Positions 2,681-63,925 of a stretch of DNA of 64,000 nt are shown here, piece after piece. The DNA lies in NCBI RefSeq assembly GCF_963921235.1, contig NC_086107.1, positions 110,734,001 to 110,798,000 on the forward strand, given 5' to 3'. The DNA comes from Mobula hypostoma (taxonomy: Eukaryota). The notes beneath the pieces are model-generated. The model was not told the DNA's origin, made no database searches, and worked only from the letters and a program-made list of their open reading frames with translations. The position numbers were made by a program, and so were the translations under genes. Each line of letters starts with the position of its first letter. Position 1 is the first letter of the stretch.

Positions 2681-3182
2681 GCTGCGTGTTTGCTTATGCC
2701 ATGACTTCCATTGAATTATGGATACTGTGTTGTGCACCTTGGTCTGGGGTGGCATTGTCTCGTTTGGCGGTATACATATGAGTGGTTGAATGTCAATGAA
2801 CTCAACTTGAACCTGAACTTGATTTTACCCTTTTTCTTCAACCCCCGAATTAGCCATTTCTTCAACCTCCCTCTCTTTGGGTAAGGGCAACGCTTCAGAA
2901 TTCCTAACAGAATGTATGAGACAGCTTCATTCGAGATTCAAGTTGACCTACCATGCGCACATGGAAATATACAGTGAAATGTGTCATTTGCGACAGCAAA
3001 CAACACGCCTAAGGTTGTGCCTAAGGCAGCCCGCAAGATTCGCCACACATTCCTGTGCCAACATAGCATACCCATAATGCTTGGCAGAACAAGGCAGAAC
3101 ACAACAAGGGACCAATAACTAGGTTTAAGGCTCTGGTTTTGAACTCTCCTACGTATAGGAGCATCATTTCTCGTCTACAACA

Positions 3183-3480
3183 GTGCACCACGGTGACGTA
3201 GCGATTAGCAGAATGCTGTTACAGCCCGGGGCATCGGAGTTTGAAGTTCAATTCCAACGTCATCTGTAAGGAGGCTGTGCCTCCTCCCTGTGGAATGCGT
3301 GGATTTTCTCCGGGTGTTCCGGTTTCCTCCCACTGTCCAAAGGCATAACGGTTGGTAGGTTAAATGGTCATTGTAAGTTGCCTTGTCATTAGGCTAGGGC
3401 TAAACGGGGGGTTGCTGGGGTGGCGTGGGCTGAGGGCCAGAAAGGCCTATTCTACACCGTGTCTCTAAACAATCAAATAA
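3183..3480 (+). mobile_element. V-SINE (HE1-like)
   Basis: tRNA-like head, V domain 'ctccgggtgttccggtttcctcccactgtccaaag', LINE-like tail. Confidence 0.8.
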
Positions 3481-3581
3481 TAGTTATTTCTGTGGGGTCA
3501 CTACTCCTCAAGATTAAAGAGCCCAAGCCTGTTCAATCAATTCTGACAGTTTTGGGCTCTATTTGTGAAATGTGAAATCTT

Positions 3582-4200
3582 GGGCGCCATGGTGACATAG
3601 TGGCTAGCACAGTGCCAGCAACCTGGGTTCAATTCCCACCACCGCCTGTAAGGAGTATGTACATTCTCCCCGTGACTGCGTGGGTTTCCTCCGGGTGCTC
3701 TGGTTTCCTCCCATAGTCCAAAGATGTACTGATTGATTGGTTGATTGGTCATTGTAAGATTGTCTTGTGGATAGGCTAGGGTTAAACTGAGGGATTGTGT
3801 GGGCACGTGGCCAAGTGGTTAAGGCATTGGACTAGCAACCTGAAGGTTGTGAGTTCGAGCCCCAGCCAAGGCAACGTGTTGTGTCCTTGAGCAAGGCGCT
3901 TAATCACACAGTGCTCTGTGATGACACTGGTGCCAAGCTGTATGGGTCCTAATGCCCTTCCCTTGGACAACATCGGTGTCGTGGAGAGGGGAGATTTGCA
4001 GCATGGGCAACTGCTGCTCTTCCATACAACCTTGCCCAGGCCTGCACCCTGGAGAGTGAAGACTTCCCAGGCGCAGGTCCATGGTCTTGCAAGACTAACG
4101 GATGCCTTTATATTTACTTAAACTGAGGGATTGCTGGGTGGCGCGGCTTGAAGGGCTGAGAGGGCCTATTCTGCACTATATCTCAATAAATAAATAAATA
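3582..4200 (+). mobile_element. V-SINE interrupted by a second SINE
   Basis: V domain at about 3665-3725; tail resumes at 4134 after the insertion. Confidence 0.8.
3798..4117 (+). mobile_element. tRNA-derived SINE with CORE-like domain and RTE-type tail
   Basis: A box 'tggccaagtgg', B box 'gttcgagcc', CORE-like 'gtgtccttgagcaaggcgcttaatc'; 16-bp TSD ttaaactgagggattg at 3782-3797 and 4118-4133. Confidence 0.85.
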
Positions 4201-4329
4201 TCTAACTAAAACCTTGTTGCATCGTGCAGTCAGACATGTAGCTGGAAAACAGCCTGCACCAACCCTCAAGCAGCCATTTTGTTCTCCCCGCACTCTAATC
4301 AACTCCAGTCAGAGTCTCCCACACACACA

Positions 4330-4865
4330 TACACACCAGGAGACAATGTATAGCAGCCAATTAACCTCACGCCTCTGGGATGTGGGAGGAAAGTGAAGCG
4401 TGGAGGAACACCACGTGGTCACAGGGAGAACATGCAAACTCCACACAGACAGCACCCGAGGTCGGATCGAACCCAGGCTGCTGGAGTTGTGAGGCAGCAG
4501 TGCGGCTAGCTGCACCACTTTGTAATGTGCATCACGATTTGATTGATTGTACATTTATTGTTTTATTTCATTTAGAAATGCAATGCAGAACGTGTCCTTC
4601 CAGCCCTTTGAGCCGTGCCGCCCGGCAACCTACGACAATCCCGACTTAACCCTAACCTAATCACGGGACAAATTACAATGACCAATTCACCTGCTAGCCG
4701 GTACGCCTTCAGAATGTGGGAGGAAGCCAGAGCACCCGGAGAAAACCCACACGTTCCATGGGGGGGACGTACAGAGTCTTTACAGATGACATCAGAATTG
4801 AACACTGAACTCTAACAACCCGATCTGTAATAGCGTTGTGCTAACCGCTACGCTACCGTGGCACC
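4330..4865 (-). mobile_element. Two tandem V-SINE copies
   Basis: Reverse-complement V domains ('tgtgggaggaa..gagcacccggagaaaacccac') and tRNA-like heads ending at about 4520 and 4865. Confidence 0.75.
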
Positions 4866-5011
4866 CATGTGTTAGTTTGCATTTTCCGTAGAACTCCACC
4901 ACTCGTTTTAGAATCTACAAAGTTACCACCACCTAAAGTTAAGAGTAGCTTCATCCTTCGCATGTATATCGAAACAACAAAACATAAAATGAAATGTGTC
5001 ATCTGCATCAT

Positions 5012-5294
5012 CTAGAAGAATGGGGGGAGGGAAATAGTGGGGTAATGACCTTATTCAGACATGTAAAGTGAGCTTAACAGAGTAGATTATGAGATCTTTC
5101 CACTTGTGGGAGGATTGTAAGTAAGGGGACATAGTTGCAAAATAGTTAGAACTCAGGTATGTGGTAATTACTTCTCAGACGGTGTGAATCTCTGGAATTC
5201 TCTGCCTGAGAAGCTGATGGAAGCCGGATCTTTGGCCATCTTTTAGTTGGAGTTAAGTACTTGAAAGATTGAGCAATCGTGGGGTTATGGGGAA
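5012..5294 (+). repeat. Near-identical copy of 327-609 inserted into a SINE
   Basis: 283 bp matching 327-609 with about 7 substitutions counted by eye. Confidence 0.95.
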
Positions 5295-5929
5295 GTGTCG
5301 CCGTGCTTCCAGAGCCAACATACTGTAGCATATCCACAGCTTACTAACTCGTACATCTTTGGAACGTGGGAGGAAACCAGAGCACCCAGAGGAAACCCAC
5401 GTGGTCATGGGGAGAGTGTATGAACTCCTGACAGACATCAGCGGGGACTGGACCCCAGCTTCTGGCTCTGTAAAGTTACGCTGCCATGCCACCAGATTTC
5501 GTTAGATATTATAGAACAAGACCTTTAGAAGTTAGTCCAGTGTTTTCCCTTCTGCTTACATGAAGCCAATTGCACACAGTTTGCTTATTATCTCACTCTC
5601 CCTTCTCTGAAATAACAGACCTATATTTGCATGCTTCCAATCTTTGGGAACCATTCTGGAATCTTTGGAATTTCTGGGAATGATGAACAGTGCATCCTCA
5701 ATCACCAAAGTCACCTTTTCCAAAGTCCTGGAATGCGGGTTGACTGGCCCTGAGCATCTTCCATATTTCAGTGCCGGAATTTCCCCCTTCCTTCCTCATG
5801 GCTTATTTCCCTCTTCCCTCTATCCTTTGTGTTCTTCATCTGTTTCCGATGACTTCTTCCTGGAGGCTGACTCAAAATACAATTATGATTTTCTTTAAGT
5901 TCTTAAAGTTTATCAATCCAGTGAGGTGG

Positions 5930-6505
5930 TGGGGTGGGGGGTGGTAGTGGGGGCAAGCTCCTGCTACCTATTAAATGCCCCCAATGGCGTGCATCTTAAA
6001 TAGCCTCTGACAACCAAGTCCAGTTCTTGGCCTTCTTGTGTGGTTTAGCTACTAAGCCCAGTGGAACCATTGCAGCTGACAGGAGAGGGGCCAAGGGAAG
6101 ATTGCTGGTGCCTTAAAATCAGTGGCTCCAGACGGATGGAGCTCATCAGCAGTGATTGGCAGCTCACCGAGGAGAAGAAAAACTCGGATCTCAAACCTCT
6201 GCTGCCTTGCGGCTATACCCACTCATGGGGAAGGCTTCAGGAGTAAACCCCGAGGGAAAAATGCAGAGCTGAAGTCCCTACGGCCGTCCTACGTTGAGAT
6301 CAGCGCTGTCTGATGACTCCCACGACACCGCCGGTGTCAAACTGTATCGGCCTCTGCCGTTCCTTTGGGTTCATCAGCTGCGTGGAGAGGGGGAGTTTGC
6401 TCCATGGGGAAACAGCCTGCTCTCCATATCGTACTGCCCTGGCTTGTGTATCACGTAGACAGCTAGGACACAGTACCCACGCTGACCCTGACCAATGGTT
6501 ACCCA
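5930..6505 (+). mobile_element. Non-autonomous retroposon resembling an RTE 5' UTR (other copies at ~11765-12520 and ~30090-30295)
   Basis: Shared block 'ggagaagaaaaactc..atctcaaacctctgctgccttgcggctatacccactcatggggaaggc' recurs at 11806-11870; no ORF. Confidence 0.6.
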
Positions 6506-6629
6506 ATTACCATAAAGGGACCGAAGTTCATCTTCAGCATTCAAAGGGAGAATATTGCACAGCTGTTTGCTAACCAAGTAGAATATCCCAGACAGCATAC
6601 CTCCAGGGAAATTCACCAGGTTTAACCAG

Positions 6630-7150
6630 AAGTTTAGTTCAAAGATCAAAGTAAATTTATTATCAAAGTACATATATGTCACCATATACAACCCTGAGAT
6701 TCATTTCCTTGTGGGAATACTCAATAAATCCAAGAAACGTAATAGAATCAATGAGATCAACAGGACGGACAAACAACCAATGTGCAAACGACAACAACTG
6801 TGCAAATACAAAAAAAAAGAAATAATAATAGTAAATAAATAAACAATAAATATCAAGAACATGAGATGAAGATCCCTTAAAAGTGAGTCCATAGGTTTTT
6901 GGAACAGTTCAGTGATGGGGCAAGTGAAGTTGAGTGAAGTTTTTCCCTCTGGTTCAAGAGCCTGATGGTTGAGGGGTAATAACTCTTCCTGAACCTGGTG
7001 GTGTGAGTCCTGAGGCTCCTGTACTACCTTCCTGATGACAGCAGCAAGAAGAGAGCATGACCTCTGAGTGACGGGGTTCCTGATGATGGATGCTGCTTTC
7101 CTGCGACAGTGCTCCCTATAGATGTGCTCAATGGTGCGTAGGGCTTTACC
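6630..7150 (-). mobile_element. Rex1-type LINE 3' end
   Basis: 'TIEHIYREHCRRKAASIIRNP' plus a 3' UTR ending aataaatttactttga; family recurs at 15570-16690, 41610-42100, 43740 and 56965. Confidence 0.75.
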
Positions 7151-7445
7151 TGATACGGGCAGAGACAAGGGAAGTGGGTCCAACATCCTTGCTGGGAGAT
7201 TTGCTACTGCCATTGGGAAGGTTTAAACTGAGCTGGCAGAGGAAGGGAACTCGGAGTAGTGGCTCAGATGAAGAAGTGCAAAGATCCAGAGGAGAATTAG
7301 GAGGTACAGCAGGCTGAACGAGCGGGTTGGTGCACATCCTCTTGCTAACGTCAGTGGTGTTAAGTTGAGAGGTTTGGGTGCACAGGTTCCTAGGAGTGAA
7401 CAGCATCGGTAGCCTGTTCTGGTCCAACCATAGCTCAGAAAGCAC

Positions 7446-7865
7446 GTTGACTGCTCAAACTTCTGCTAATGCCCCACCTCCCTCTCATACCCCATGCATT
7501 ATTTATTTATATTCTTTTTCTCTCTCTCCTTTTTCTCCCTCTGTCCCTCTGACTATACCCCTTGCCCATCCTCTGGACTCCCCCTCCCCCCCCTTTTCTT
7601 TCTCCCTGGGCCTCCTGTCCCATGATCCTCTCATATCCCCTTTGCCAATCACCTGTCCAGCTCTTGGCTCCATCTTTCCCTCTCCTGTCTTCTCCTATCA
7701 ATTTGGATCTCCCCCTCCCCCTCCCCCTCCCACTTTCAAATCTCTTACTCACTCTTCCTTCAGTTAGTCCTGACGAAGGGTCTCGGCCTGAAACGTCGAC
7801 TGCACCTCTTCCTGGAGATGCTGCCTGGACCGCTGCGTTCACCAGCATTTTTTGTGTGTGTGTTG
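7446..7865 (+). mobile_element. Penelope-like (Neptune-type) 3' UTR/pLTR
   Basis: Homologous to the region downstream of the GIY-YIG ORF at 9777-10076; polypyrimidine tract plus hammerhead. Confidence 0.85.
7766..7801 (+). ncRNA. Minimal type I hammerhead ribozyme
   Basis: AGTC-CTGACGA-A-GGGT-CTCG-GCCT-GAAA-CGTC-GACT: stem I AGTC/GACT, stem II, palindromic ACGT stem III, GUC cleavage triplet at 7795-7797. Confidence 0.85.
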
Positions 7866-8217
7866 ACAGTAACACCTCTACTTCTTTAGGAAGCTAAAGA
7901 AACTTACCATGTACCCTCTCAAATGTTTGAGATATATCTCAGAAACCATCATTAGTCTGGCAACTACTGGGTACACCATTGCTACGGCAACTACTCTGCC
8001 CAAGACTGGAAGAAACTGCAGCAAGCTGTGAACACAGTTCAGCACTTCACAGAAACTAGCCTTCTCTTCATGTACTTTGTGTAGACTTCTCACTGCCTCG
8101 ATAAAGCATAATCAAAGCTACCCACCCGTCCTGCACATTCCCTCTCCTTCCTGCCATCAGGCAGAAGATGCAAAAGCCTAAATGCATGTACCATCCAGCC
8201 TCTACCCCGCTGTTACA

Positions 8218-9329
8218 CACTCAGCTGCCACTTTACTAGCTACCTCCTATACCTAATAAAGTGGCCACTGAGTGTACGTTCATGGTCTTCTGCTGCTGTA
8301 GCCTGTCCACTTCAAGGTTTGATATGTTGTGCATTCAGAGATGCTCTTCTGCACGCCACTGTTGTAACGTGTGGTTACTTGAGTTACCGTCGCCTTCCTG
8401 TCGGCTTGAACCAGTCTGGCCATTCTCCCCGACCTCTCTCATCAACAAGGCATTTTTGCCCACAGAACTGCTGCTCGCTGGCCTCCTTTCGTTTTTCACA
8501 CCATTCTCTGTAAACTCTAGAGAATGCTGTGCATGAAAATCCCAGAAGATCAGTGGTTTCTGTGATAATCAAACCACCCCAGCTGGCACCGACAATCATT
8601 CCACGGTCAAAGTCACTTTGATCACATTTCTTCCCCATTCTGAAGTCTGGTCTGAACAACAGCAACAACTTAGAATCATAGAACCACAGAACATTACAGC
8701 ACAGAAACAGGCCTTTTGGCCCTTCTTGGCTGTGCCGAACCATTTTTCTGCCTCGTCCCACTGACCTGCACCTGGACCATACCCCTCCATACACCAGAAT
8801 TGCCAGCAGAGTCCACACACCAAGTAAATTGGACCTAGGGATCAAGCTGCCAAAGTTTAAGAGATGTTGAGTGAGTATTTCTGGTCTAGGATCAAATGTT
8901 TGTTTCTGGAGTTCCTCTGGAAGCAATGGCTGTTAATCTGAGGAGAGAACTTCTTCCCCTCTGCCATACGATTCCTAAATGGACATCAAACCTATGAACA
9001 CTACCTTCCCTTTTTTAAAAAAAATATATATAGTTCTGCATTTGCACTATTTTTAATCTATTCAATATACATATACTGTATATATTTAATGTAATCGATT
9101 TATTTATTTATTTTTCTTTCTATATTATCATGTATTGCATTGTACTGCTGCTGCTAAGTTAACAAATTTCACGACATACGCCGGTGATAATCAACCCGAT
9201 TCGGAACTGAGCCTCTTGACCATGTCGGCATGCTTTTGTGCATTGAGTTGCTGCCACATGATTGGCTGATTAGATACTTGCGTTAACGAGCAGGTGTTCA
9301 GGTGTACCTAATAAAGTGGCCACTGAGTG
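8218..9329 (-). mobile_element. Non-autonomous Tc1-like transposon (interrupted)
   Basis: ITR 'tacctaataaagtggccactgagtg'; HTH remnant MGKKCDQSDFDRGMIVGASWGGLIITETTDLLGFSCTAFSRVYREW. Confidence 0.85.
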
Positions 9330-9450
9330 CAAGACACACAAAATGCTGGAAGAACTCAGTCGGCCAGGCAGCATCTACGGAAGAGAGTATTTTCTCTTAA
9401 AAGTTTCTGGTAAACGCAGCAGGCCAGGCAGCATCTCTAGGAAGAGGTAC

Positions 9451-9486
9451 AGTCGACGTTTCAGGCCGAGACCCTTCGTCAGGATT
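9451..9486 (-). ncRNA. Minimal type I hammerhead ribozyme
   Basis: Minus strand AATC-CTGACGA-A-GGGT-CTCG-GCCT-GAAA-CGTC-GACT, same sense as the GIY-YIG ORF. Confidence 0.8.
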
Positions 9487-9776
9487 AACTGAAGGAAGAG
9501 TGAGTAAGGGATTTGAAAGTTGGAGGGGGAGGGGGAGATCCAAAATGATAGGAGAAGACAGGAGGGGGAGGGATGGAGCCAAGAGCTGGACAGGTGATTG
9601 GCAAAAGGGATATGAGAGGATCATGGGACAGGAGGCCCAGGGAGAAGGAAAAGGGGGGGGTCCCAGAGGATGGGCAAGGGGTATATTCAGAGGGACAGAG
9701 GGAGAAAAAGGAGAGTGAGAGAAAGAATGTGTATATATAAATAAATAACAGATGGGTACGAGGGGGAAGTGGGGCA

Positions 9777-10076
9777 TTAGCGGAAGTTTGAGAAGTCAAT
9801 GTTCATGCCATCAGGTTGGAGGCTACCCAGACGGAATATAAGGTGTTGTTTCTCCAACCTGAGTGTGGCTTCATCTTTACAGTAGAGGAGGCCGTGGATA
9901 GACATGTCAGAATGGGAATGGGAATGGGATGTGGAATTAAAATGTGTGGCCACTGGGAGATCCTGCTTTCTCTGGCGGACAGAGCATAGGTGTTCAGCGA
10001 AACAATCTCCCAGTCTGCGTCGGGTCTCGCCAATATGTAGAAGGCCACATCGGGAGCACCGGACGCAGTATATCAC
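9777..10076 (-). pseudogene. PLE GIY-YIG endonuclease domain (5'-truncated)
   Basis: IYCVRCSRCGLLHIGETRRRLGDCFAEH...HFN...H...RLEKQHLIFRLGSLQPDGMN; GIY/YIG-like motifs with the CxxC insert typical of PLEs. Confidence 0.9.
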
Positions 10077-11393
10077 CCCAGCCGACTCACAGGTGAAGTA
10101 TCACCTCACCCGGAAGGGCTGTCTGGGGCCCTGAATGGTGGTGAGGGAGGAAGTGTAAGGGCATGTGTAGCACTTGTTCGCTTACAAGGGTAAGTGCTAG
10201 GAGGGAGATAGGTGGGGAGTTTGCTTGAAATTCCAGCATCTGCAGATTTCCTCGTGTTTGAGTATTTTCCTTTGTTTGTATTGAGTGTAAGAGTATTGAA
10301 TAGTCCCTTTGCTCAATCAGATGGACTCTTGATCTCACGATCTATCTCACCATGGCCTTGTGCCTTTTTATCCGTCAGCATTGTACTTTCTCAGTGACTG
10401 TAATACTTTATTTTGAATTCTGTTATTTTACCTTGTAATACCTTGGTGTAGTGATGTGGATCACTGTACCTCAGTATATGTGGCACTAATAAACCAATTT
10501 ACCAATTTATCAACGGAATTCAAAGCTATTTTTTTCATTTATTTTGGATTCAAAGTTTTAATTAACACAGGAGTCTGCAGTGCTGCTGCCATCATTGAGG
10601 CATGGCTGAATGGTGGCCAGGACTGGCAACTCCCGGCAACCACAGCGTACAGAAATTTCAGGTGAGATTGAGGGTGACTAAAAGAGAAGGAGATATTGCA
10701 CTGTTAGTCAAAGATTGCAAATATTTCAGTATTGAGAGGGAATCTTCGAGAATAAGCGGGGAGGAAGTTTTGCACTGTTAGTCAAAGATTGCAATACTTG
10801 AGTATTAAGGGACAATAGAACATAGAACACAGAAGCTCACAGCACAGGGACAGGCCATTCAGCCCACAATGTTGTGCTGGACAAGCTAAAGAGCAAATCA
10901 AAAACACCAAGCACTAATCTCTCCTACCTACACCATGTCCATATCGCTCCATCTTCCTCGTGTTCACTTGCCTATCTAAACGTCTCTTAAAAGTCCATTG
11001 GATGCATTCCAGGCATCCACCACTCTCTGAGTAAAAAACTTACCCCTCACATCCCCCTTGAACCTACCCCTGCACACCTTCAAAGCAAGCCCCCTGCAAC
11101 CCTGGGAAACAGATACTCCCTGTCTATGCCTTTCATAATCTTATAAACCTCTACCAGATCTTCCCTCCATCTCCAGCACTCCAGAGAAAACAACCCAAGT
11201 TTAACAAGCCTCTCGTGATAGTGCATGGCCTTCTAGGATAGAACGTCCTAGAAGCTTCCTTAAATAAGGCAACATGGGTAGAGAATAGAAACAAAATTGA
11301 TGTCTCTTTGCGGTGGGTGTACGGACCTCCCAACAGTCAAGAGGCAATAAAGGAACAGATAAATAGACAGATATCAGTGAGATACAATTAAAG

Positions 11394-11617
11394 CAACACA
11401 CATAAAAGTTGCTGGTGAACGCAGCAGACCAGACAACATCTCTAGGAAGAGGTACAATCGATGTTTCGGGCCGAGATCTTTTGGACGAAGGGTCTCGGCC
11501 CGAAACGTCGACTGTACCTCTTCTTAGAGATGCTGTCTGGCTGGCCTGCTGCGTTCACCAGCAACTCTTATGTGTGTTGCTTGAAATTCCAGCATCTGCA
11601 GATTTCCTCGTGTTTGC
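11394..11617 (+). mobile_element. Fold-back PLE pLTR insertion
   Basis: Inverted arms centred near 11482 with a one-sided tail of about 37 nt; 15-bp TSD gagatacaattaaag at 11379-11393 and 11618-11632. Confidence 0.9.
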
Positions 11618-12043
11618 GAGATACAATTAAAGTAGGGTTGTTGGAATGGGAGGTTTCAAATTCCCAAGTATTAACTGGGATTGTCCTGGTGTTAAAGGTG
11701 CAGAAAAGATAGTATTTTTGAGGCGTGCCCCAGAGAGATTTTTTGAATCAGTATGAAAATAAAGGGCAAATGGGGCTGATCATCTGTAGTTGGCAGCTCA
11801 TCTAGGGGAAGGAAAACTCTGATCTCAAACCTCCGCTGCCTTGTGGCTACACCCACTCATGGGGAAGGCTTCGGGAGTAAAACCCGAGGGAAAAGTCTGG
11901 AGCTGGAGTCCCTAAGGTAGTCCTACATTGAGCTCAACGCTGACTGGCAACTCCTGTGATGCTGCTGGTGCCAAACTGTATCGGACTCTGCCGTTGCTTT
12001 GGGTTCACTGGCTGCATGGAGAGAGGGAGCTTGCTTCATGGTT

Positions 12044-16254: not shown

Positions 16255-16435
16255 GCACTCCCCCGCACCTTCTTGCTCTGACCTCTCATCTTTCTTTCCA
16301 GTCCTGATGAAGGGCCTCAGCTCGAAACGCCAACGACTTACTCTTTTCCATGGATGCTGCCTGGCTGGCTGAGTTCCTCCAGCATTTTGTGTGTGTTGCT
16401 GTGGATTCACAGCATCTGCAGATTTTCTTGTGTTT
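16255..16435 (+). mobile_element. Older PLE pLTR with degenerate hammerhead (16300-16338)
   Basis: AGTC-CTGATGA-A-GGGC-CTCA-GCTC-GAAA-CGCC, plus tail 'cagcatctgcagattttcttgtgttt'. Confidence 0.75.
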
Positions 16436-16688
16436 GAGAAGAGAGCATGGCCTGGATGGAGTGGGTCCTTGATGATGGAGACTGCTTTCCTGTGGCAATG
16501 CTCCTTGTGGATGTGTTCAATGGTGGGGGGAGCTTTTGCTAAGCAGGATTGGACTGTGTCCACCATCTTAATTGGCCTTCCTTTTGTTGGGCATTGGTTT
16601 TCCATACTAGGCCATGATACATCCATTCAGGATACTCTATTGTAAACCTACAGAAGTTCGTCAAAGTTTTAGATAACATGCCAACTCT

Positions 16689-17310
16689 CATAGTCATACT
16701 TCATTGATCCCGGGGGAAATTGGTTTTCGTTACAGTTGCACCATAAATGATAAATAGTAATAGAACCATAAATAGTTAAATAGTAATATGTAAATTATGC
16801 CAGTAAATTATGAAATAAGTCCAGGACCAGCCTATTGGCTCAGGGTGTCTGACCCTCCAAGGGAGGAGTTATAAAGTTTGATGGCCACAGGCAGGAATGA
16901 CTTCCTATGACGCTCTGTGTTGCATCTCGGTGGAATGAGTCTCTGGCTGAATGTACTCCTGTGCCCAACCAGTACATTATGTAGTGGATGGGAGACATTG
17001 TCCAAGATGACATGCAACTTGGACAGCATCCTCTTTTCAGACACCACCGTGACAGAGTCCAGTTCCATCCCCACAACATCACTGGCCTTACGAATGAGTT
17101 TGTTGATTCTCTTGGTGTCTGCTACCCTCAGCCTGCTGCCCCAGCACACAACAGCAAACATGATCGCACTGGCCACCACAGACTTGTAGAACATCCTCAG
17201 CAGCGTCCAGCAGATGTTAAAGGACCTCAGTCTCCTCAGGAAACAAACGGCTCTGACCCTTCTTGTAGACAGCCTCAGTGTTCTTTGACCAGTCCAGTTT
17301 ATTGTCAATC
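16689..17310 (-). mobile_element. Rex1-type LINE 3' fragment
   Basis: ORF 16832-17308 nearly identical to the C-terminus of 25058-25972. Confidence 0.9.
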
Positions 17311-18250: not shown

Positions 18251-18925
18251 GTTATATATATGGGAATGGGGATAGGAATTAAAAAGGCTGGCCACAGGGA
18301 AATTCTGTTTTTTGCGGGTGGGGCTTTAGAGTTTCAGGTAGAAGGCAGGAGAACGGGGCTGGAAAAAAAGCCAGCCATGAATGATAGCTGAGCCAATTTC
18401 ATTGGGGTGAATAACTTAATCATGCCCCTGTATGATATGGTCTTATGGTTCTAATTTGACTTTTCCTCAAGGCATTAAGAATTAACTATGTGATGGAGTA
18501 TCTGAATCACAGCTATCCTTGCCTTCCCTGAGGACACTGGTGACCAACGGATTGTTATAAGACTTGGTAGCTCGCTTCATTGTTTAAGCATTGAAAACTC
18601 TTAGGGGGATGTAGGTCAAATATGGGCAAAGGGCACAGGCTTGGTGGGCACCGTGGGCCGGATGGGCTGAAGGGCCTGTTTCTGTGCTGTGTGACTCCAT
18701 GACTGTGCTTGCGAGACTGTCCAGCAACAGTGCTCAGTCTCGCAAGCTCTGTGTTCCTGTTAGACAATAGACAATAGGTGCAGGAGTAGGCCATTTGGCC
18801 CTTCAGTGAAGCTGAACGAGTACAGTGGGTACAGGATGATCCTGCATGGGATCAGCAAAGGTGAATATCCTGGCTCTTGGCAGCAGGCTCCTTTTGCAAT
18901 CGAAGGAGAAAGGCTGTGTGTTCAG

Positions 18926-19476
18926 GTTGGAGGAACAACACCTTATATTCCGTCTGGGTAGCCTCCAACCTGATGGCATGAACATTGACTTCTCAAACTT
19001 CCGTTAATGCCCCCCTCCCCTTTACACCCCATCCCTTATTTATTTATTTAACATATTTTTTTATTTTATCCCCTCTTTTTTTCTCTCTCTCTTTTTTCTC
19101 CCTCTGTCCCTCTCACTATAATTCCGTGCCTCCTCTCCCTGCTCTGGCCTCCCCTCCCCTCTTCTCTCTCTCCCCAGGTTTCCCGTCCCATTATCTTCTC
19201 CCTTCTCCAGCCTGGTATCCCTTTTGCCAATCAACTTTCCAGCTCTTAGATCCACCCCTCCCCTCCTGTCTTCTCCTATCATTTTGGATCTCCCCCTCTC
19301 CCTCTTACTTTCAAATCTCTTACTATCTCTTCTTTCAGTTAGTCCTGACGAAGGGTCTCGGCCCAAAACGTCGACTGTACCTCTTCCTAGAGATGCTGCC
19401 TGGCCTGCTGCGTTCATCAGCAATTTTTGTGTATGTTGCTTGAATTTCTAGCATCTGCAGATTTCCTCGTGTCTGC
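18926..19476 (+). mobile_element. Penelope-like element 3' end with hammerhead at 19341-19376
   Basis: 'LEEQHLIFRLGSLQPDGMNIDFSNFR*', then pLTR; hammerhead has GAAA>AAAA; TSD gtgttcag at 18918-18925 and 19477-19484. Confidence 0.9.
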
Positions 19477-19592
19477 GTGTTCAGATCTCTCTCTCCTTGC
19501 CTCCAGCTAATTAAGCCTTCACTAGTAATCTACATCCTTTGAAAATGCAATTGAATTCTGGGTTTCTTTAAATTTCTCCAGGTTAAAATAAC

Positions 19593-20249: not shown

Positions 20250-20540
20250 CACGCTTACTTTTCCTCACCCGCCTATCACCTCCGCCAGTGCCCCTCCTCC
20301 TTCCCTTTCTCCCATGGACAACTCTCCTCTCCTATCAGATTCCTTCTTCTCCAGCCCTTGACCTTTTCGACCCACCTGGCTTCACCAATCACCTTCCAGC
20401 CAGTCTCCTTCCCCTCCCCCCACCTTTTTATTCTGGCATATTCCCCCTTACTTCTCAGTCTTGATGAAGGGCCTCAGCCTGAAACGTCAATTCATTTCCA
20501 CAGATGCTGCCTGACCTGCTGAGTTCCCCCAGCATTTTGC
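20250..20540 (+). mobile_element. Older PLE pLTR with degenerate hammerhead (~20457-20492)
   Basis: agtc-TTGATGA-A-GGGC-CTCA-GCCT-GAAACGTC. Confidence 0.7.
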
Positions 20541-28044: not shown

Positions 28045-28201
28045 ATATGAAACACAAAAGATTCTGCCAGAGCAACATGCACAGAATGCAGGAGGAACTC
28101 AGGAAGTTAGGTAGCACTCCGATGAAGGGTCGACTGCTTATTCCCCTTCACAGGTGCTGCCTGACTTGCTGAGTTGCTCCAGAATTTTGTCTGTGTTTCA
28201 C
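28045..28201. mobile_element. Fold-back PLE pLTR insertion, older subfamily
   Basis: Inverted arms around the hammerhead remnant 'ccgatgaagggtcgact'; TSD caaggatcaa at 28035-28044 and 28202-28211. Confidence 0.75.
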
Positions 28202-36882: not shown

Positions 36883-37112
36883 AAATGCAAACACGAGGAA
36901 ATCTGCAGATGCTGGAAATTCAAGCAACACACACAAAAATTGCTGGTGAACGCAGCAGGCCAGGCAGCATCCCTAGGAAGAGGTCCAGCCGACGCTTCAG
37001 GTCGTGACCCTTCGAAGGGTCCTGACGAAGGGTCTCGGCCCGAAGCGTCGACTGTACCTCTTCCTATTGATGCTGCCTGGCCTGCTGCGTTCACCAGCAT
37101 TTTTTTGTGTGT
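36883..37112 (-). mobile_element. Fold-back PLE pLTR insertion
   Basis: Inverted arms, central palindrome gacccttcgaagggtc, one-sided tail; 13-bp TSD agactgtatttgt at 36870-36882 and 37113-37125. Confidence 0.9.
37018..37053 (+). ncRNA. Minimal hammerhead ribozyme variant (GAAG instead of GAAA)
   Basis: GGTC-CTGACGA-A-GGGT-CTCG-GCCC-GAAG-CGTC-GACT. Confidence 0.7.
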
Positions 37113-37257
37113 AGACTGTATTTGTCCTGCTTCTTGAAAACAGGATATATCTGCACAATTTTCCACATTATTAGATAGATGCTGTTGTTGTTACCATGAA
37201 GGAACACCTTGGCTAGAGCTGGAGCGCAAGTCCTCAGTGCAACAGTCCTGTGCTATA

Positions 37258-39180: not shown

Positions 39181-41385
39181 TATACTTATAAAAGCAATGT
39201 GGTCCATTTTTTTATGTTCCCTGGCTGTCTACTCTCATATTTATCTCACTTTCCCTTTCTTTGCTAAGTTCTAAAATACTGTGAATCCCCAGGCCTTCTG
39301 CTATTTCTGGAAATTTATAAGCCTCTTCCTTGGATTTAATATTATCTTTAATTTCTCTTGTCAGGCGTGGATGAATCACTGTTCCTGTATGGTTTTTGTC
39401 CCTTAAAGGAACCCTTTACAATTTATACATTCTTTTTTCTTTAAATAAGTACCAACGCACAAGGATATCTACTCATTAATTGCAGCTCAGTATCCTCTTA
39501 TCATTTAGAATTAAGCCCCAGTTTCACATTGAACCACATCACCTTCAGACTCAATATCACATTCCATCAGATTCTGGACACTGTTCCTGAAGACCCATTG
39601 ACAAATCAATTATACATATGCCCTTTCTTACTGCACTGCGCTAAACAAAACGCATCCAAGATGCAGAGGTCTGAAGTAACCAAAAAGTGCTTTGATGTGT
39701 GCTACAAAATGCTGGAGAAACTCAGCAGATCAGGCAGCGTCTATGGAGAGGAGTAAAGAGTTGATGTACTGAGCTGAGATGGTTCACTTTCTGCTCAAAT
39801 GCCTTTGCATAGTCATACTCACAAGAGACCCTGCAGATGCTGGAAATCCAGGGTAACACGTACAAAATGCTGGAGGAACTCAGCAGATCAGGCAGCATCT
39901 ATGGAGAGGAATAAAGAGCTGGTGTTTCAGGCCAAGACCTTCATCAACCCATAGCTCACTTGAACACTTTTATCTCCTTGGCCAAAATAAGACAATTAGA
40001 CCTTAAGATATAGGAGCAGAATTAGGCTATTTGCCCCTTCGAGTCTGCTATGTCATTTCATCATGGCTGATCCAATTTCCCTCTCAGTCTCAGTCTCCTG
40101 CCATCATATCCCCTCATGCCCTGACCAATCAAGAATCTATCAACTTCTGCCCTAAATAAAGACTTGGTCTCCACAGCTGCCTGTGACAATGAATTCCATG
40201 GCTAAATAAATTCCTCCTGATCTCCATTCTAAAAGGATGCCCCTCTATTCTGAGGCTGTGTCCTCTGGTCTTAGACTCCCCGACCGTAGGAGACATCCTC
40301 CCCACATCCACTCTATTGAGGTCTTTCAACATTCGATAGGTATCAATGAGGTCACCCCTCATAACCAATTACGAATACTAACGCTGGAAATGTTTAAGGG
40401 TTTAAATGTTTAATTATGCTTATTACAAGAATTGCAATACTTTCTGTAGTTTCTATAGCTTAAGACTGTAGAGAAAGCATAAAGAATCTGTAGAAAATTG
40501 ATTTCCAAATTGCTGTGGCCTTGTTCCAGGTGTTGAATATACTTAACACCAGAGGTGGAACAGGTCTGATAACTAATTCGCCCACTGCGGCAGATGGCTA
40601 TTGCATTATGGTAATGCTGTGGTGCCTTGAGTGTATTGTGGACCTTTGGATTCTATCACCGACATTAATGTAAACCTGCTATGGTTTGGAACGTGAAGTA
40701 AGCACAAATTTTATTTGTGACGGTTGGCCTTCAAGTGCTCAGCAGGCTTGGAATGAATGATATCACAGGACCTAAGTGTGTGGAAGATATTCTTGAGTGA
40801 GTAACAGTCCAACACATAAGGCAGACCTTCCCTTAACAGCTAGCATGACCCACATTAGAGTTGTAGAACCATAAAGAAGTATAGTCAGAATCAAGCCCTT
40901 CAGCCCATCTAGTCCATGCTGAAGCCATCTAAACTGCCTACTCCCTATTGACGTGCACCAAGACCACAGCCCTCCATTCCCTTACCATCCATGTACCTAT
41001 CCAGACTTCTCTTAGGCATTGAAATCGAGCTCACATGCACCACTTGTGCTGGCAGCTCGTTCTACTCTCTCATGACCCTCGGAGTGAAGAAGTCCCCCCT
41101 CATTTTCCCCGTAAACTTTTCACCTTTCGCCCTTAACCCATGTAGTCCCACCCAACCTCAGTGGAAAAAGCCTGCTTGCACTGCCTGCCCTTAAAATCGA
41201 AAGAAGTGAACAACGCTGCACAAGCAGTAATGGACTTACACAGCAGGTATCTAATACAATAAATCAGCCCAAATTAATTATGAACTTAAATGTCTGATTA
41301 TATTTCAGAAGCATATATACACAAAAGATGGAATACATAGGTAATACCAGTGAACTTGATGAGTATTCACAATTGTTGGCTTGTA

Positions 41386-41535
41386 ACAGAGCAACACACA
41401 CACAGAATACCCAAAGAACTCGGTAGGTCAGGCAGCATCTATGGAGAGGAATAAAGAGCCGATGTTTTGGGCTGAGACCTTCCATCAGCATTTTGTATGT
41501 GTTACTCTGGATTTCCAACAGAATTTCTTGTGCTT
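41386..41535. mobile_element. Short inverted PLE pLTR insertion
   Basis: Minus arm ending in a hammerhead remnant, then plus-strand tail; TSD ttggcttgta at 41376-41385 and 41536-41545. Confidence 0.7.
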
Positions 41536-46700: not shown

Positions 46701-47205
46701 GAGGCAGGTACAAGGTTCTGAGTTGGATGATCAGCCATGATCATACTGAATGGCGGTGCAGGCTTGAAGGGCCAAATGGCCTACTCCTGCACCTGTTTTC
46801 TATGTTTCTATGTTTCTATCACAGTGGATTGAAGTGCTACCGGACGGTAGTTATTGAGGCAGGGTGACAAGCAACACACATCAAAGTTGCTGGTGAACGC
46901 AGCAGGCCAGGCAGCATCTCTAGGAAGAGGCACGAGACCCTTCGTCAGGACAGGCAGGTTACCATGTTCTTCTCAGGCACCGGTATAATTGAAGCCTGCT
47001 TGAAGCAGGTGGGTACGTCAGACTGTTGAAGCGAGAAGTTAAAGGTCTCAGTGAACACAGCTGACCAACACAGGTATTTAATACTTGGCCAGGCACCTCG
47101 TCTGGGCCGGATGCTTTTCACAGCTTCACCTTTCTGAAGGCTGCTCGCACATTGGCCTCAGAGACTGAAAGTACAGGGTAATCGGGGGCTGTGAGAGTTT
47201 GTGAT
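43740..47205 (-). mobile_element. Decayed Rex1-type LINE hosting a CR1 insertion and a PLE fragment (46870-46951)
   Basis: [45 protein letters not shown]. Confidence 0.85.
45138..46820 (+). mobile_element. CR1/HER1-like LINE, 5'-truncated, with disrupted RT
   Basis: KSPGPEGLHPRVLKE, QHGFVKGKSCLTNL, YLDLQKAFDKVPH, GVPQGSVLGP, SKFADDTKL; premature TAG at 46142-46144; (TTCTATGT)n tail. Confidence 0.95.
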
Positions 47206-47559: not shown

Positions 47560-47870
47560 TCTTTTACCTCTTCTCACCTGCCTATCATCTCTCCCCCGGG
47601 TCCCCTCCTCTTTCCCTTTCTCCTACACTCCACTCTCCTCTCCTATCAGGTTCCTTCTTCTCCTGTCCTTGACCTTTCCCACCCACGTGGCTTCACTTAT
47701 CACCTTCCAGCTAGCCTCCTTCACCTCCTCCCCACCTTTTTATTCTGGCATCTTCTCCCCTCCTTTTCAGCCCTGAAAGCGGATCTCGGCCCAAAATGTT
47801 GACTATCTGTTCGTTTCCGTAGATGCTGCCTGGCCTACTGAGTTCCTTCAGCATTTTGTGTGTGTTGCTA
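47560..47870 (+). mobile_element. Older PLE 3' UTR/pLTR with degenerate hammerhead
   Basis: Homologous to 20250-20540. Confidence 0.7.
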
Positions 47871-50340: not shown

Positions 50341-50727
50341 CTCCCCACCTGCCCATCATCTCCCTCTGGTTCCCTTCCTCCTTCCCTTTCCCCCATGGGT
50401 GCCGATCCCTGTGCTCCTGGTGGCTCCCCATTTTAATTCAGCTTCCCATTCCCACACTGACATGGCCTTCTCCCCACCTGCCCATCATCTCCCTCTGGTT
50501 CCCTTCCTCCTTCCCTTTCCCCCATGGGTGCCGATCCCTGTGCTCCTGGTGGCTCCCCATTTTAATTCAGCTTCCCATTCCCACACTGACATGGCCTTCT
50601 CCCCACCTGCCCATCATCTCCCTCTGGTTCCCTTCCTCCTTCCCTTTCCCCCATGGGTGCCGATCCCTGTGCTCCTGGTGGCTCCCCATTTTAATTCAGC
50701 TTCCCATTCCCACACTGACATGGCCTT
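50341..50727 (+). repeat. Three tandem copies of a 129-bp PLE-derived unit
   Basis: Unit starts at 50341, 50470 and 50599; copies look identical. Confidence 0.95.
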
Positions 50728-51230
50728 CTCTACTGCGTTGATGATGGCAAATGAAGGCTGGAGGAGCCACATCTCATATTCCATCCAGGTAGCCTCCAAC
50801 CTGATTGCATGAACGTTGATTCCTCTAACTTCTAGTAATCACGCCCCTCTTTCCCCCCCTCGTTTGTTTTTCCCCATTATGGCGATCCTCTCACCCCCTT
50901 CTCTTCTCCTCATGAGCTGCCTATCACCTCCCTCCACTTCCCCACCTCCTTCCCTTTTCTCCACTTTCCTCTCTCATCAGTTATTAGCCCTTCACCTTGT
51001 CCACATCACCTCCCAGCTTCTTACGTCACTCCCCCTCACCCAGCCCATCCACCTTCCCCCTCACCTAGTCTCACCTCTCACCTTGCACCCCACCCCTCCC
51101 CCAGACTTCTTATCTGGCTTCTTCCCCGTTCCATCCCAGTCCCGACGAAGGGGCTCAACCTGAAATGTTGACGGTCTATCCGTGCTGCATGGCTTGCTAG
51201 TTCCTCCAGCTTTTTGTGCGCCTTGCCCAG
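50728..51230 (+). mobile_element. Decayed PLE GIY-YIG end and pLTR
   Basis: 'LEEPHLIFHPGSLQPDCMNVDSSNF*' and a degenerate hammerhead at about 51138-51175. Confidence 0.75.
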
Positions 51231-51634
51231 GATCCACAAGCCACTGCCGGTCTGGTGGAGACTCGGACTGCTTGCATCTTTGTCCGGAGCCACCTTGAAA
51301 CTTTACCATCAATCGGTGTCAAGATTACTTGCATACTTCTGGATTTGCAGACTGCTGCCTGTTAAGTGCTCTGAAGGATGCCAAGTGTATAATGTCCTCT
51401 GCTCCAAAGGCTTTGGTGCCAAATGGTTAAAGATCTATTATGCAGAATTCTCCTAAATGTGAGTTCTGTCCTTGCAACATGAGCACTTAAAGATTACCTG
51501 AAGAGGAAATGTTTCTGAGATCAGAAAATGAAAGACAAATTAAAAGAGTTAATTTTATTTATTTATTTAGAGATATAGCACAGAACAGGTCCTTGTTCCT
51601 AACAAGTCGCGTTGCCCGGTAACCCACCTATTTT

Positions 51635-52055
51635 GGCATGAACATTGAATTCTCCAATTTCCGGTAATTCCCTCCTCCTCCCTTCCCCCATCCCAGTTTC
51701 ACTCTGCCCCCTCCTCCAGCTGCCTATCACCTCCCTCATGGTTCCACCTACTTCTACTACCCATTGTGCTTCCTTCATTCCTTCTTCACCTTTCCTGCCT
51801 GTCACCTCCCTGCTTCCCCTCCCCCACCCCTTTATCTTTCCCCTTACTGGTTTTTCACCTGGAACCTACCAGCCTTCTCCTTCCCACCCTCCTCTCACCT
51901 TCTTTATAGGGCCCCTGTCTCCTCCCTCTTCAGTCCTGACAAAGGGCCTCGGCCCAAAACGTTGACTGTTCGTTTCCACGGATGCTGACCTACTGAGTTC
52001 CTCCAGCCTGCTGTGCGTGTTGCTTTGACCCCAGCATCTGCAGAGTGTTTTGTGT
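51635..52055 (+). mobile_element. PLE 3' end with degenerate hammerhead (51932-51967)
   Basis: GMNIEFSNFR*, then agtc-CTGACAA-A-GGGC-CTCG-GCCC-AAAACGTT-gact. Confidence 0.8.
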
Positions 52056-62039: not shown

Positions 62040-62424
62040 TAGTCTACAACATGTCACAGATGCCAAGGTTGTGCTTACCAGGCCTGTCTTGAGCTACATA
62101 CACAAAGTTCCAGCAGGTCAGGCAGCATCAATGGAGGGGAATGAACAGTCAGGCTGAGACCCTTCCTCAGGACTGGAAAGCAATGGGGCAGAAGCCAGAA
62201 TTGGAAGCGTGGGGGACACTTGCGGGCTGCCCCCTGAACATGCTGGTCATTGTGCAGACGATGCATTTCACTGTATGTTTTGATGTTTCCGTGTGCATGT
62301 GATAAATAAAGCTAATCTTAAAGCTGTAATCTTTAAATGTTGTCTTCTTAAGGAAGCTCCTCAGATGGGTAGTATTGATGGTGTGGAGGGATGTGTTGGG
62401 CTGAGCTCGCTACTCTGTGCCAGA

Positions 62425-62760
62425 TAAGCACAAGAGATTCTGTGGCTGTTGGAAATCCGAAGTCACACACACAACGTGCTGGAGGAACTCTGCAGGTCAG
62501 GCAACAACAATGAAGGGGACTAAACAGTTGACAATTCAGGCTGAGACCCTTCTTCAGCACTGGAAAGGAAGAGGTGGGGAAAGGAGAAGGGGAGGAGGAG
62601 AAGTACAAGCTGGCACGTGATGAAGGACCTCAGCCCGTAATGTCCTCGGTTGCACTGTTTATTCCTCTCCATAGGTGCTGCCTGACCTGCTGAGTGACTC
62701 CAGCATTTTGTGCGTGTGTCTATTGCTCATATTTTCGAGCATCTGTCAAATCTCACGTGT
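62425..62760. mobile_element. Inverted-arm PLE pLTR remnant with two degenerate hammerheads
   Basis: Minus arm 62425-62565 and plus arm 62618-62760. Confidence 0.65.
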
Positions 62761-62989
62761 CTGTATCAAAGGCAATAACCATCCCTGGATAACAGACGGC
62801 TTCTGTTTTCACAGATGTCCTTAAGTCAACTTTGTCCATTCAGAAAATACACAAAAGCCACTTGATATGGTAACCACACCTCCACAGTTTTGTGATGAAT
62901 GGATTTAGTGAGAGAGAGAGAGAAAGAGAGAGAGGGAGAGGGAAAAAGGGAAGAGGGATCGAGATGGAGGGGAAAAGAGAGAGAGAGGG

Positions 62990-63925
62990 ACCCTTCATCA
63001 AGACTGGAAAGGAAGGGGGAAGAAGTCAGAATATGAAGGTAGGGGAGGGGAAGGCGCACAAGATGGCAGGTGATAGATGAAACCAGGTGAGAGGGGAAGC
63101 AGATGGGTGGAGGAAGGAGGATGAAATAAGAAGCCAGGTGATGATTGGTGGAAATGGTAAAGGGCTGAAGAAGAGGGAATCTGATAGGAGAGGAGAGTGG
63201 ACCATGGGAGAAAGGGAAGAAGGTGGTGGGCAGGTGAGAAAAAGACAAGGGTTAAGAGTCTGAATGAGGAATGGAGATGGAGAGGAGGGAGAGAAAGCAC
63301 TGGAAAAGAAATAAATGTTCATGCCATCAGGTTTGGAGATAAGCCAGCCGTGAGGTGGTGATCCTCCGACCGAGAGTGGCCTCATTGTGGCAGTGGAGGA
63401 GGCTATGGACTGACATGTTGGAATAGGATTGGGGACTGGAATTAAAATGCCTGGCCGCCGGGAAATCCTACTTGTGTGTCTCAACAATGTGGTCCCCCAA
63501 TCTGGAGTCGGGTCTCACTGATGTGGAGGAGGGCGCACCTCGAACACCGGATGCAACAGGCAACTCCCACGGACTCACAGAGGAAGTGATGCCGCTCCTG
63601 GAAGGATTGCCTGGGGCCCTGAATGTTGGTGAGGGACGAGGTGAGTGGGCAAGTGTAGCACTTCTTCCGCTTGCAGGGATAAGCACTGGGGAGGGGGGAG
63701 ATCAGTGGGGAGGGGTGAACGGGCAGGGAATCATGAGGGAAGCGATCCCTGTGGAAAGCAGAGAGTGGGGTGAGGTGAAGATATGTTTGGGGGTAGGAAC
63801 CCACTGAAGATGGTGGGTGTTGTGGAGAATGATGTGCTGGATGCAGAGGCCCATGAGATGGTAGCTAAGGACAAGAGAAACTCTATCACTGTTAAGGCGT
63901 GGGGAAAATGAGGCAAAGCCATCTT
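62990..63925 (-). mobile_element. Decayed Neptune-type PLE (RT end, Cys linker, GIY-YIG, pLTR)
   Basis: DRVSLVLSYH..IQHIILHN..; YPCKRKKCYTCPLTSSLTNIQGPRQSFQERHHFLCESVGVACCIRCSRCALLHISETR. Confidence 0.85.

What the first reader, a model, noticed from the sequence alone, without database searches (positions are those of the whole stretch)
7766..7801. Minimal hammerhead ribozyme family carried by a Penelope-like pLTR, about 15 copies in 64 kb
Seen: a recurrent 36-nt motif, consensus AGTC-CTGACGA-A-GGGT-CTCG-GCCC-GAAA-CGTC-GACT. Copies lie at 7766(+), 9451(-), 11484(+, core broken), 16300(+), 19341(+), 20457(+), 37018(+), ~47769, ~51138 and 51932, with remnants at ~28120, 39920, 41460, 46925, 62150, 62530, 62620 and 62990. 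It has the CUGANGA and GAAA core boxes, stem I (AGTC/GACT), stem II (GGGU/GCCC, or GGGC/GCCC in some copies) and a GUC cleavage triplet. Stem III has no loop and is only the palindrome ACGU. It lies downstream of, and in the same sense as, the GIY-YIG ORF. Established: Penelope-like elements encode minimal type I hammerheads that are thought to cleave as dimers through a palindromic stem III. Inference: this genome holds very many such motifs, and sense copies could affect any host pre-mRNA crossing the locus.
Basis: partly seen in the sequence, partly recalled or inferred. Interest (0 to 1): 0.75.

Follow-up and report, generated by a model that had tools for sequence, protein, structure and literature searches.

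The report
Penelope retroelement's known minimal hammerhead motif
The repeat is real: it is an already described kind of tiny hammerhead ribozyme motif that sits in the end repeat of a very abundant Penelope-type jumping gene, and most copies in this stretch have a broken catalytic core and are likely inactive, so it is a new example of a known thing.

Summary
Confirmed, but a known kind. The window holds 16 copies within 12 mismatches (shuffles 0.03); only 2 keep the catalytic core and 1 (7766-7801) keeps core plus both stems. The motif lies about 295 nt after the stop of a ~1,016-aa RT + GIY-YIG ORF with a Neptune/Nematis-type linker; one genomic copy has it in both pLTRs, 3,516 nt apart. 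Stems covary across relatives from other animals, not among genomic copies, which decay neutrally. This is the min-HHR of Cervera and De la Pena 2014. Two details: the commonest variant has G10.1-U11.1 in place of the conserved G-C, and copies' 5' ends pile up at the motif's first base (227 versus 15-26 at three other positions), not at the cut site, so integration templates are likely uncut. Cleavage is untested; harm to host pre-mRNA is unsupported. The scan has noted this family before, in this genome and at least 22 genomes.

The parts
7766..7801 (+). Minimal type I hammerhead motif, core and both stems intact, G10.1-U11.1 variant; predicted cut after 7797
   Evidence: 32,886 exact genomic copies
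7444..7861 (+). 5'-truncated PLE end: pyrimidine-rich 3' region/pLTR, hammerhead, tail to about +96
   Evidence: 84% to the 3' end of long-ORF copy L017
9400..10219 (-). 5'-truncated PLE copy: endonuclease remnant, 3' region, hammerhead, tail
   Evidence: 92% to L017 over 825 nt
9780..10219 (-). GIY-YIG endonuclease remnant with in-frame stops (ORF aa 872-1016)
   Evidence: tblastn 89% over aa 886-1016
9451..9486 (-). Hammerhead copy, core intact, one stem I mismatch
10221..10263 (+). Inverted tail piece abutting the 5' end of the 9400-10219 copy
11386..11618 (.). Head-to-head fold-back of two PLE ends joined inside the hammerhead; both cores broken
16300..16436 (+). Older-subfamily end; core broken (U16.1 changed)
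18891..19478 (+). PLE end with last 37 aa of the ORF and hammerhead at 19341-19376; G12 changed
20371..20538 (+). Older-subfamily end, hammerhead at 20457-20492; C3 changed
28067..28197 (.). Decayed fold-back remnant (tail arms, partial motif)
36884..37123 (.). Head-to-head fold-back; hammerhead at 37018-37053(+) with A15.1 changed and an inverted partner at 36987-37022(-)
39704..39946 (-). Two decayed older-subfamily ends
41396..41535 (.). Decayed end, motif at 41457-41492(-), with a short tail piece on the + strand
46868..46952 (-). Young end with the 3' half of the motif deleted
47769..47869 (+). Decayed older-subfamily end
50672..51238 (+). Older PLE end with last 38 aa of an ORF (50719-50832) and motif at 51138-51173; core broken
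51932..52055 (+). Older-subfamily end; G8 and G12 changed
62111..62174 (-). Remnant, 3' half of the motif lost
62426..62717 (.). Head-to-head pair: motifs at 62526-62561(-) and 62613-62648(+), both broken
62964..63887 (-). Older PLE copy with linker/endonuclease remnant (63372-63887) and a partial motif near 62990

Best explanation
The 36-nt repeat is the minimal type I hammerhead motif in the terminal repeat (pLTR) of a Neptune-type Penelope-like retrotransposon, scattered as short 5'-truncated ends that are likely inactive, and it would cut RNA only weakly, as a pair or with the element's protein, in transcripts of rare full-length copies. Shown: the motif's position about 295 nt after the RT + GIY-YIG ORF and in both pLTRs of a complete copy; stem covariation between lineages; neutral decay after insertion; 3' ends at two sites about +100 and +135 from the motif's first base; a peak of 5' ends at the motif's first base and none at the cut site. 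Inferred: the element's RNA starts at the motif's first base (an initiator-like YYANWYY context, consensus recalled); the element's protein primes reverse transcription at the two tail sites downstream of the motif, as shown for the anole Poseidon element; priming in the 3' pLTR gives variably truncated long copies, and priming in the 5' pLTR runs off the RNA's 5' end and gives 95-139-nt stubs and fold-backs. The integrated templates are therefore mostly uncut, and cleavage is likely an occasional or regulatory event, not a required step.
For: Complete copy L015: pLTR 2801-3129, open frame 3055-6249, pLTR 6317-6645 (98.5% alike), motif at 3029 and 6545. Pfam RVT_1 (E 6e-5) and GIY-YIG (E 6e-4), both below the curated cut-offs; DKG, YIDD, CX4CxxC linker and CxxC inside GIY-YIG, matching the clade traits in PMC8557442 (passages). 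All 10 of the 10 long-ORF loci taken carry the motif after the ORF. A strict descriptor finds 9 motifs in 80 relative loci (268,790 nt; 8 on the ORF strand, 1 in an inverted repeat) and 0 in 20 shuffles; 9 aligned motifs: 93% of cells paired, 24 two-sided changes versus 7.3 +/- 2.2, slid controls at most 48% paired. 3' ends: 31 of 37 young copies at +97..+107 or +133..+139 (+139 is the reference's end). 5' ends: 14 of 37 at -10..+26, 0 of 37 at +27..+59; genome-wide 227 at +1 versus 26 at the cut site, 15 at -23 and 17 at +56, about 77 versus 4.9, 3.5 and 3.6 per 1,000 copies; cut site versus control P = 0.07. 10 of the first 20 '+1' loci are solo stubs with unrelated flanks, against 3 of 20 '+33' loci.
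Against: No cleavage was measured. Nearest-neighbour folding prefers an inactive rod in which the core pairs with itself (-10.0 kcal/mol, z -0.37); the hammerhead fold has P < 0.001, and an inactive duplex (-30) beats the double hammerhead (-11.5); such models do not score the core, so this is weak. Four of the seven relatives in the covariation alignment were picked by a descriptor that demands stems, which inflates pairing; 13 of 26 relative loci that reach the ORF end showed no core-like motif in up to 450 nt downstream (4 of those 13 had under 250 nt). The RNA start is not observed: only contigs were available. Among the 100 listed '+1' flanks the last letter is G in 37 and A in 63 (hand count), so no sign of a copied cap. 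Clade was assigned by motifs, not by a tree with named references.
Confidence: 0.8

Rival explanations
1. Classical model: paired hammerheads in the two pLTRs cut the transcript to a unit-length 3,516-nt RNA that circularises and is the main template, giving more-than-unit copies.
For: Proposed in PMC4209133 and reviewed in PMC6765202. L015 has two intact motifs one unit apart and is longer than one unit. Core and stems are kept across lineages. A circle would also leave no 5' ends at the cut site.
Against: A circle has no end at +1, so it does not explain the 20-fold peak there. 3' ends lie 65-105 nt past the cut site. Hammerhead mutants did not affect insertion in vitro for the anole element (PMC11167929).
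Confidence: 0.2
2. The motif in the youngest subfamily is a degenerating ribozyme, kept because the same bases serve as RNA start, promoter or protein-binding site.
For: The commonest exact variant has G10.1-U11.1 (32,886 versus 4,891; 10 of 10 long-ORF loci), whereas 12 of 13 relatives' motifs keep G-C and PMC4209133 calls that pair highly conserved. It costs 1.9 kcal/mol per motif. Naiads proliferate without hammerheads (PMC8557442).
Against: All core bases, the extra A, the palindrome and stem I are unchanged in the master lineage. G-U still pairs. The long-ORF loci were found with a query from this subfamily, so 10 of 10 is biased. I found no paper with a measured rate for this wobble.
Confidence: 0.25
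3. Dispersed sense copies cut host pre-mRNA and act as a genome-wide load or a regulatory layer.
For: An estimated 6e4 (3.6-9.4e4) copies keep core and stems (19 of 116). In whale shark 30% of PLE sequence is intronic (10.1101/443036, passages).
Against: Monomers inactive in vitro; 4 of 100 exact copies with a same-strand exact partner within 5 kb, while 11 of 13 close pairs are on opposite strands; no selection for or against core bases after insertion; strands balanced (16,386/16,500). Strand bias inside introns was not tested.
Confidence: 0.07
4. The short copies are a separate non-autonomous family (SINE-like or retrozyme) with its own master gene.
For: Many stubs of 95-139 nt begin at one base. 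Tandem retrozymes derived from pLTRs occur in one sampled chondrichthyan (10.64898/2026.07.22.740005, passages).
Against: Stubs are 85-98% alike to the autonomous element's end and share its two 3' ends; 5' ends otherwise run continuously to -1707; fold-back arms differ from locus to locus. No tandem array was seen in the window.
Confidence: 0.08

Closest known systems
Minimal hammerheads (min-HHR) in pLTRs of metazoan PLEs, including fish Xena, Poseidon and Neptune (Cervera and De la Pena 2014, PMC4209133; parts 1-2 of 4 read)
   Same: Type I core with no loop 3, palindromic 15.2-16.2, 4-5-bp helix I, an extra base between A9 and G10.1, location in both pLTRs, mostly single dispersed copies, nearby pairs on opposite strands.
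   Different: Copy number: 32,886 exact copies of one 36-mer versus about 4,000 (coelacanth) and 9,000 (Xenopus) motifs there, by a different method; a 4-bp helix II; G10.1-U11.1 in the commonest variant. No shark or ray is named in the parts read or in supplement file 2 (file 1 could not be searched).
Neptune (or Nematis) clade EN+ Penelope-like elements (Craig et al. 2021, PMC8557442; passages)
   Same: Single RT + C-terminal GIY-YIG ORF, CX2-5CxxC linker, CxxC inside GIY-YIG, DKG motif, partial tandem pLTR, adjacent inverted 5'-truncated copy, optional 30-40-bp tail.
   Different: Nothing structural seen; Neptune versus Nematis was not separated by a tree.
Poseidon element PAc of the green anole (Frangieh et al. 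2024, PMC11167929; parts 1-2 of 4 read)
   Same: Two reverse-transcription start sites downstream of the hammerhead that match genomic 3' ends; no ends at the cut site.
   Different: There the ORF starts inside stem II and the starts lie in the ORF; here the likely start codon lies about 140 nt after the cut site. Other clade. Activity shown there, untested here.
Non-LTR retrozymes (PMC7229834, listing only; bioRxiv 10.64898/2026.07.22.740005, parts 1-2 of 5 read)
   Same: Type I hammerheads derived from PLE pLTRs.
   Different: Retrozymes are tandem arrays with a motif in each unit; these copies are dispersed single or head-to-head ends of an autonomous element.

Membership tests
min-HHR of metazoan PLEs | Core boxes CUGANGA and GAAA with UH cleavage site | tested here: met
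   7766 and 9451 intact; 38 of 116 sampled copies
min-HHR of metazoan PLEs | No helix III loop; palindromic 15.2-16.2 | tested here: met
   A-C-G-U at 7793-7796; palindromes also in the 9 strict hits in relatives
min-HHR of metazoan PLEs | Helices I and II supported by compensatory change | tested here: met
   Between lineages (selection caveat stated); not among genomic copies
min-HHR of metazoan PLEs | Extra base between A9 and G10.1 | tested here: met
   A in 113 of 116 sampled copies
min-HHR of metazoan PLEs | G10.1-C11.1 pair (described as highly conserved, not as obligatory) | tested here: inconclusive
   Met in the older subfamilies (4,891 exact copies); G-U in the commonest variant (32,886)
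min-HHR of metazoan PLEs | Located in both pLTRs, in sense with the ORF | tested here: met
   L015 3029 and 6545
min-HHR of metazoan PLEs | Self-cleavage as a dimer or with protein | not testable with these tools
   needs an in vitro assay
EN+ PLE, Neptune/Nematis type | One ORF with RT followed by GIY-YIG | tested here: met
   Pfam hits below curated cut-offs; relatives with the same domains
EN+ PLE, Neptune/Nematis type | CX2-5CxxC linker and CxxC between the GIY and YIG boxes | tested here: met
   aa 883 and 923 of the L015 ORF; criterion from PMC8557442
EN+ PLE, Neptune/Nematis type | pLTR, inverted 5' copy, optional 30-40-bp tail | tested here: met
   direct pLTR in 1 of 10 long-ORF loci; inverted 5' copies in L013, L016, L017 among the 5 self-compared; two 3' ends
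Neptune clade proper | RT phylogeny with named Neptune elements | not tested
   no named reference set on hand
Non-LTR retrozyme | Tandem units each with a hammerhead | tested here: not met
   dispersed or head-to-head copies in the window; 2 same-strand close pairs among 100 exact copies
Rfam hammerhead families | Match to a covariance model | tested here: not met
   no hammerhead hit at E <= 1; the models expect a full helix III (recalled)

The most novel reading that the evidence does not exclude
The most successful subfamily of this Penelope element starts its RNA at the first base of its hammerhead, retrotransposes from uncut RNA, and has fixed a G10.1-U11.1 wobble that weakens the ribozyme: the hammerhead acts as a brake (removing the cap in the 5' pLTR or the priming site in the 3' pLTR), and loosening it helped a burst of tens of thousands of copies. 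That would make the open question of what PLE hammerheads are for testable with a natural pair of variants.
Probability: 0.2. Interest if true: 0.55.

Novelty: new member of a known kind. Interest (0 to 1): 0.2.

Why it matters
As a class it is published, so it matters little as a discovery. It is a large natural sample: an estimated 3.7e5 copies, with complete ORF-bearing elements still in the genome, two natural variants at a conserved pair, and sharp 5' and 3' end points. These bear on a question still called unclear in PMC8557442 (what the hammerhead does for the element). The end-point pattern was noted before by other agents of this scan in the same genome; I re-measured it here.

Tried and rejected
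Rfam scan: no hammerhead family; the best hit (MIR9408, below its gathering score) is the 11426-11543 fold-back. Core-box pattern alone: not above chance. Covariation among genomic copies: none useful; changes sit at CpG positions (28% versus 8-9%; 77 of 116 copies used, those with an intact 5' stem strand or at most 3 mismatches). Folding energies: not discriminating. A first pair count had one stem I pair set a column off and was redone; L199, L203 and L210 were left out of that alignment because a 2-nt insert misaligned them, near-duplicates L160 and L204 and the broken L141 were also left out; all are listed in the per-pair table; one row (L143) is still one column off at two pairs. Splice-acceptor reading of the pyrimidine tract plus AG at the motif's start (as for D. 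virilis): the '+1' copies have unrelated flanks, not a shared upstream exon, and contig joints showed no recurrent intron ending there among the 15 of 526 joints listed; not favoured. Cap signature: none (hand count). Expression: no RNA holder listed; 4 runs of guessed kind, contigs only, cover the element with a steep 3' bias and cannot show starts, ends or level. Whether the window lies in a host transcript remains open. Lunse et al. 2017 on dimer cleavage is not held; I saw only its title and its citation in PMC6765202, and it may include shark or ray examples. Repbase and Dfam were not available, so the family may already be catalogued there.

Full report
Observation. Using the 7766-7801 copy as probe, 16 places in the window lie within 12 mismatches (9 on +, 7 on -), against 0.03 per shuffled window; blastn with motif plus tail gives 25 merged pieces. 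The core boxes alone are not enriched (10 versus 7.0 +/- 2.6) and Rfam has no hammerhead match. By standard numbering the copy has stem I (4 bp, a fifth G-U possible), C3-A9, one extra A, a 4-bp stem II with a 4-nt loop, G12-A15.1, C15.2, G16.2, U16.1 and C17 at 7797. Only 7766 and 9451 keep every core base, and only 7766 also keeps both stems.

The element. The 9451 copy follows a GIY-YIG remnant on the same strand. A search of the genome with that remnant gave 181,795 first-look candidates, of which 150 were scored. I took 10 of those with long open frames (722-1,064 aa). All 10 have the motif about 295 nt after the stop; L015 is complete, with direct repeats at 2801-3129 and 6317-6645 and the motif in both, 3,516 nt apart; L013, L016 and L017 have inverted 5' copies. 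The L015 protein (1,016 aa from the likely start codon) matches RVT_1 and GIY-YIG below Pfam's cut-offs and has the DKG motif, the CX4CxxC linker and CxxC inside GIY-YIG, the traits given for Neptune and Nematis in PMC8557442 (passages). Its closest named relatives are from the bamboo shark Chiloscyllium punctatum (71% and 69%), then unnamed or invertebrate proteins at 45-57%, so the host is likely a cartilaginous fish (inference).

Abundance. In 110 evenly spaced 10-kb stretches on 16 large contigs I found 116 copies within 12 mismatches, which scales to 3.7e5 (bootstrap 2.9-4.5e5); 38 of 116 keep the core and 19 of 116 core plus stems (about 6e4). The window is 2.4 times denser than this sample. 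Cervera and De la Pena counted about 4,000 and 9,000 motifs in coelacanth and Xenopus by a descriptor.

Is it a hammerhead? Among genomic copies the changes are decay: 8.1% at non-CpG core positions, 8.7% at other non-CpG positions and 28% at CpG positions (77 of the 116 copies). Between lineages the structure shows. In 80 loci of related elements from metagenome contigs a strict descriptor found 9 motifs, 8 on the ORF strand and 1 in an inverted repeat, and none in 20 shuffles. A relaxed search without a control found a core-like motif after the ORF in 13 of 26 loci that reach its end. For 9 aligned motifs, 93% of cells pair, all 4 stem I pairs and 2 of 4 stem II pairs change on both sides, and slid controls reach at most 48%; part of this is built in by the descriptor. 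Twelve of 13 relatives' motifs keep G10.1-C11.1; the exception has a broken core. Thermodynamic folding prefers an inactive rod and an inactive duplex, in line with the weak activity reported for the class, but these models do not score the core.

How it likely works. Young copies end at two sites, about +100 and +135 from the motif's first base (31 of 37). This is the known 30-40-bp tail, which in the anole element marks two internal starts of reverse transcription (PMC11167929). Both lie downstream of the cut site (+32/+33), so a template cut in the 3' pLTR would lack them (inference). Following a lead from earlier notes of the scan, I measured 5' ends. In the sample, 14 of 37 lie at -10..+26 and 0 of 37 at +27..+59. 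Genome-wide, patterns that demand four non-element letters before a given position gave 227 at +1, 26 at +33, 15 at -23 and 17 at +56. Normalised by sample counts of 15-27 (so +/- 20-25%), this is about 77, 4.9, 3.5 and 3.6 per 1,000 copies, and the cut site is not clearly above control (P = 0.07). Of the first 20 '+1' loci, 10 are solo stubs, 9 have an adjacent inverted partner and 1 is an internal deletion; of the first 20 of the 26 '+33' loci only 3 are solo. The first base sits in a YYANWYY context in the four window copies checked (consensus recalled), and D. virilis Penelope has an internal promoter (PMC2377424, passages). The simplest reading is an RNA that starts at +1 and is copied uncut. 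This is inferred: no raw RNA reads were available and no cap signature was seen.

Host effect. Single motifs did not cleave and dimers cleaved weakly; the anole motif needed protein, and its mutants inserted normally. Among the first 100 exact copies on contig C1, 4 have a same-strand exact partner within 5 kb, and 11 of 13 close pairs are on opposite strands.

Literature seen. PMC4209133: parts 1-2 of 4 and a search of one supplement file. PMC11167929: parts 1-2 of 4. bioRxiv 10.64898/2026.07.22.740005: parts 1-2 of 5 and passages. PMC8557442, PMC6765202, PMC6155905, PMC2377424, PMC3846280 and 10.1101/443036: passages. Lunse et al. 2017: title and citation only. Searches showed no paper on this motif in shark or ray PLEs or on a 5'-end peak at the motif; two searches showed none on the G-U variant (listings only). 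Subscription papers, Repbase, Dfam and bioRxiv supplements were not seen and may cover these points.

Verdict. Real, correctly recognised, and a member of a class published in 2014; most copies here are debris. The scan holds 76 notes on this kind of motif in at least 22 genomes and many in this genome, including the 5'-end peak. New member of a known kind; interest 0.2.

Noticed in passing
window 8213-8279, 9301-9329, 24530-24558, 26373-26398, 26893-26916, 38642-38707; ORF 8384-8932(-): A second repeat family with a shared ~25-nt end, twice as a short palindrome (weak Rfam mir-9256 hits below the gathering score), beside a reading frame that resembles the N-terminus of a Tc1/mariner transposase (recalled resemblance).
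   Followed up: no
window 16832-17356(-), 25058-25984(-), 48404-49321(-), 55508-56212(-), 45311-46144(+), 33743-34574(-): Non-LTR retrotransposon remnants of at least two other families; 45311-46144 matches RVT_1 at E 1.6e-32.
   Followed up: partly
L013 330-1919(-); L021 447-1791: Older, diverged PLE relatives (66-75% DNA identity) lie beside young copies, so several PLE lineages coexist in the genome.
   Followed up: no
L182, L187, L194, about 385 nt after the ORF match: A different hammerhead-like motif without the extra A and with a longer segment after GAAA, in more distant relatives.
   Followed up: no
window 7755-7781: The pyrimidine tract just upstream can pair with the purine run spanning the core and stem II, so a read-through transcript is predicted to fold the motif into an inactive hairpin (stem pair probabilities below 0.02). 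The same complementarity extends alignments at fold-back junctions to about -8.
   Followed up: partly
window 50243-50812: A ~129-nt unit repeated three times in tandem just upstream of an older PLE end (seen as repeated peptides).
   Followed up: no
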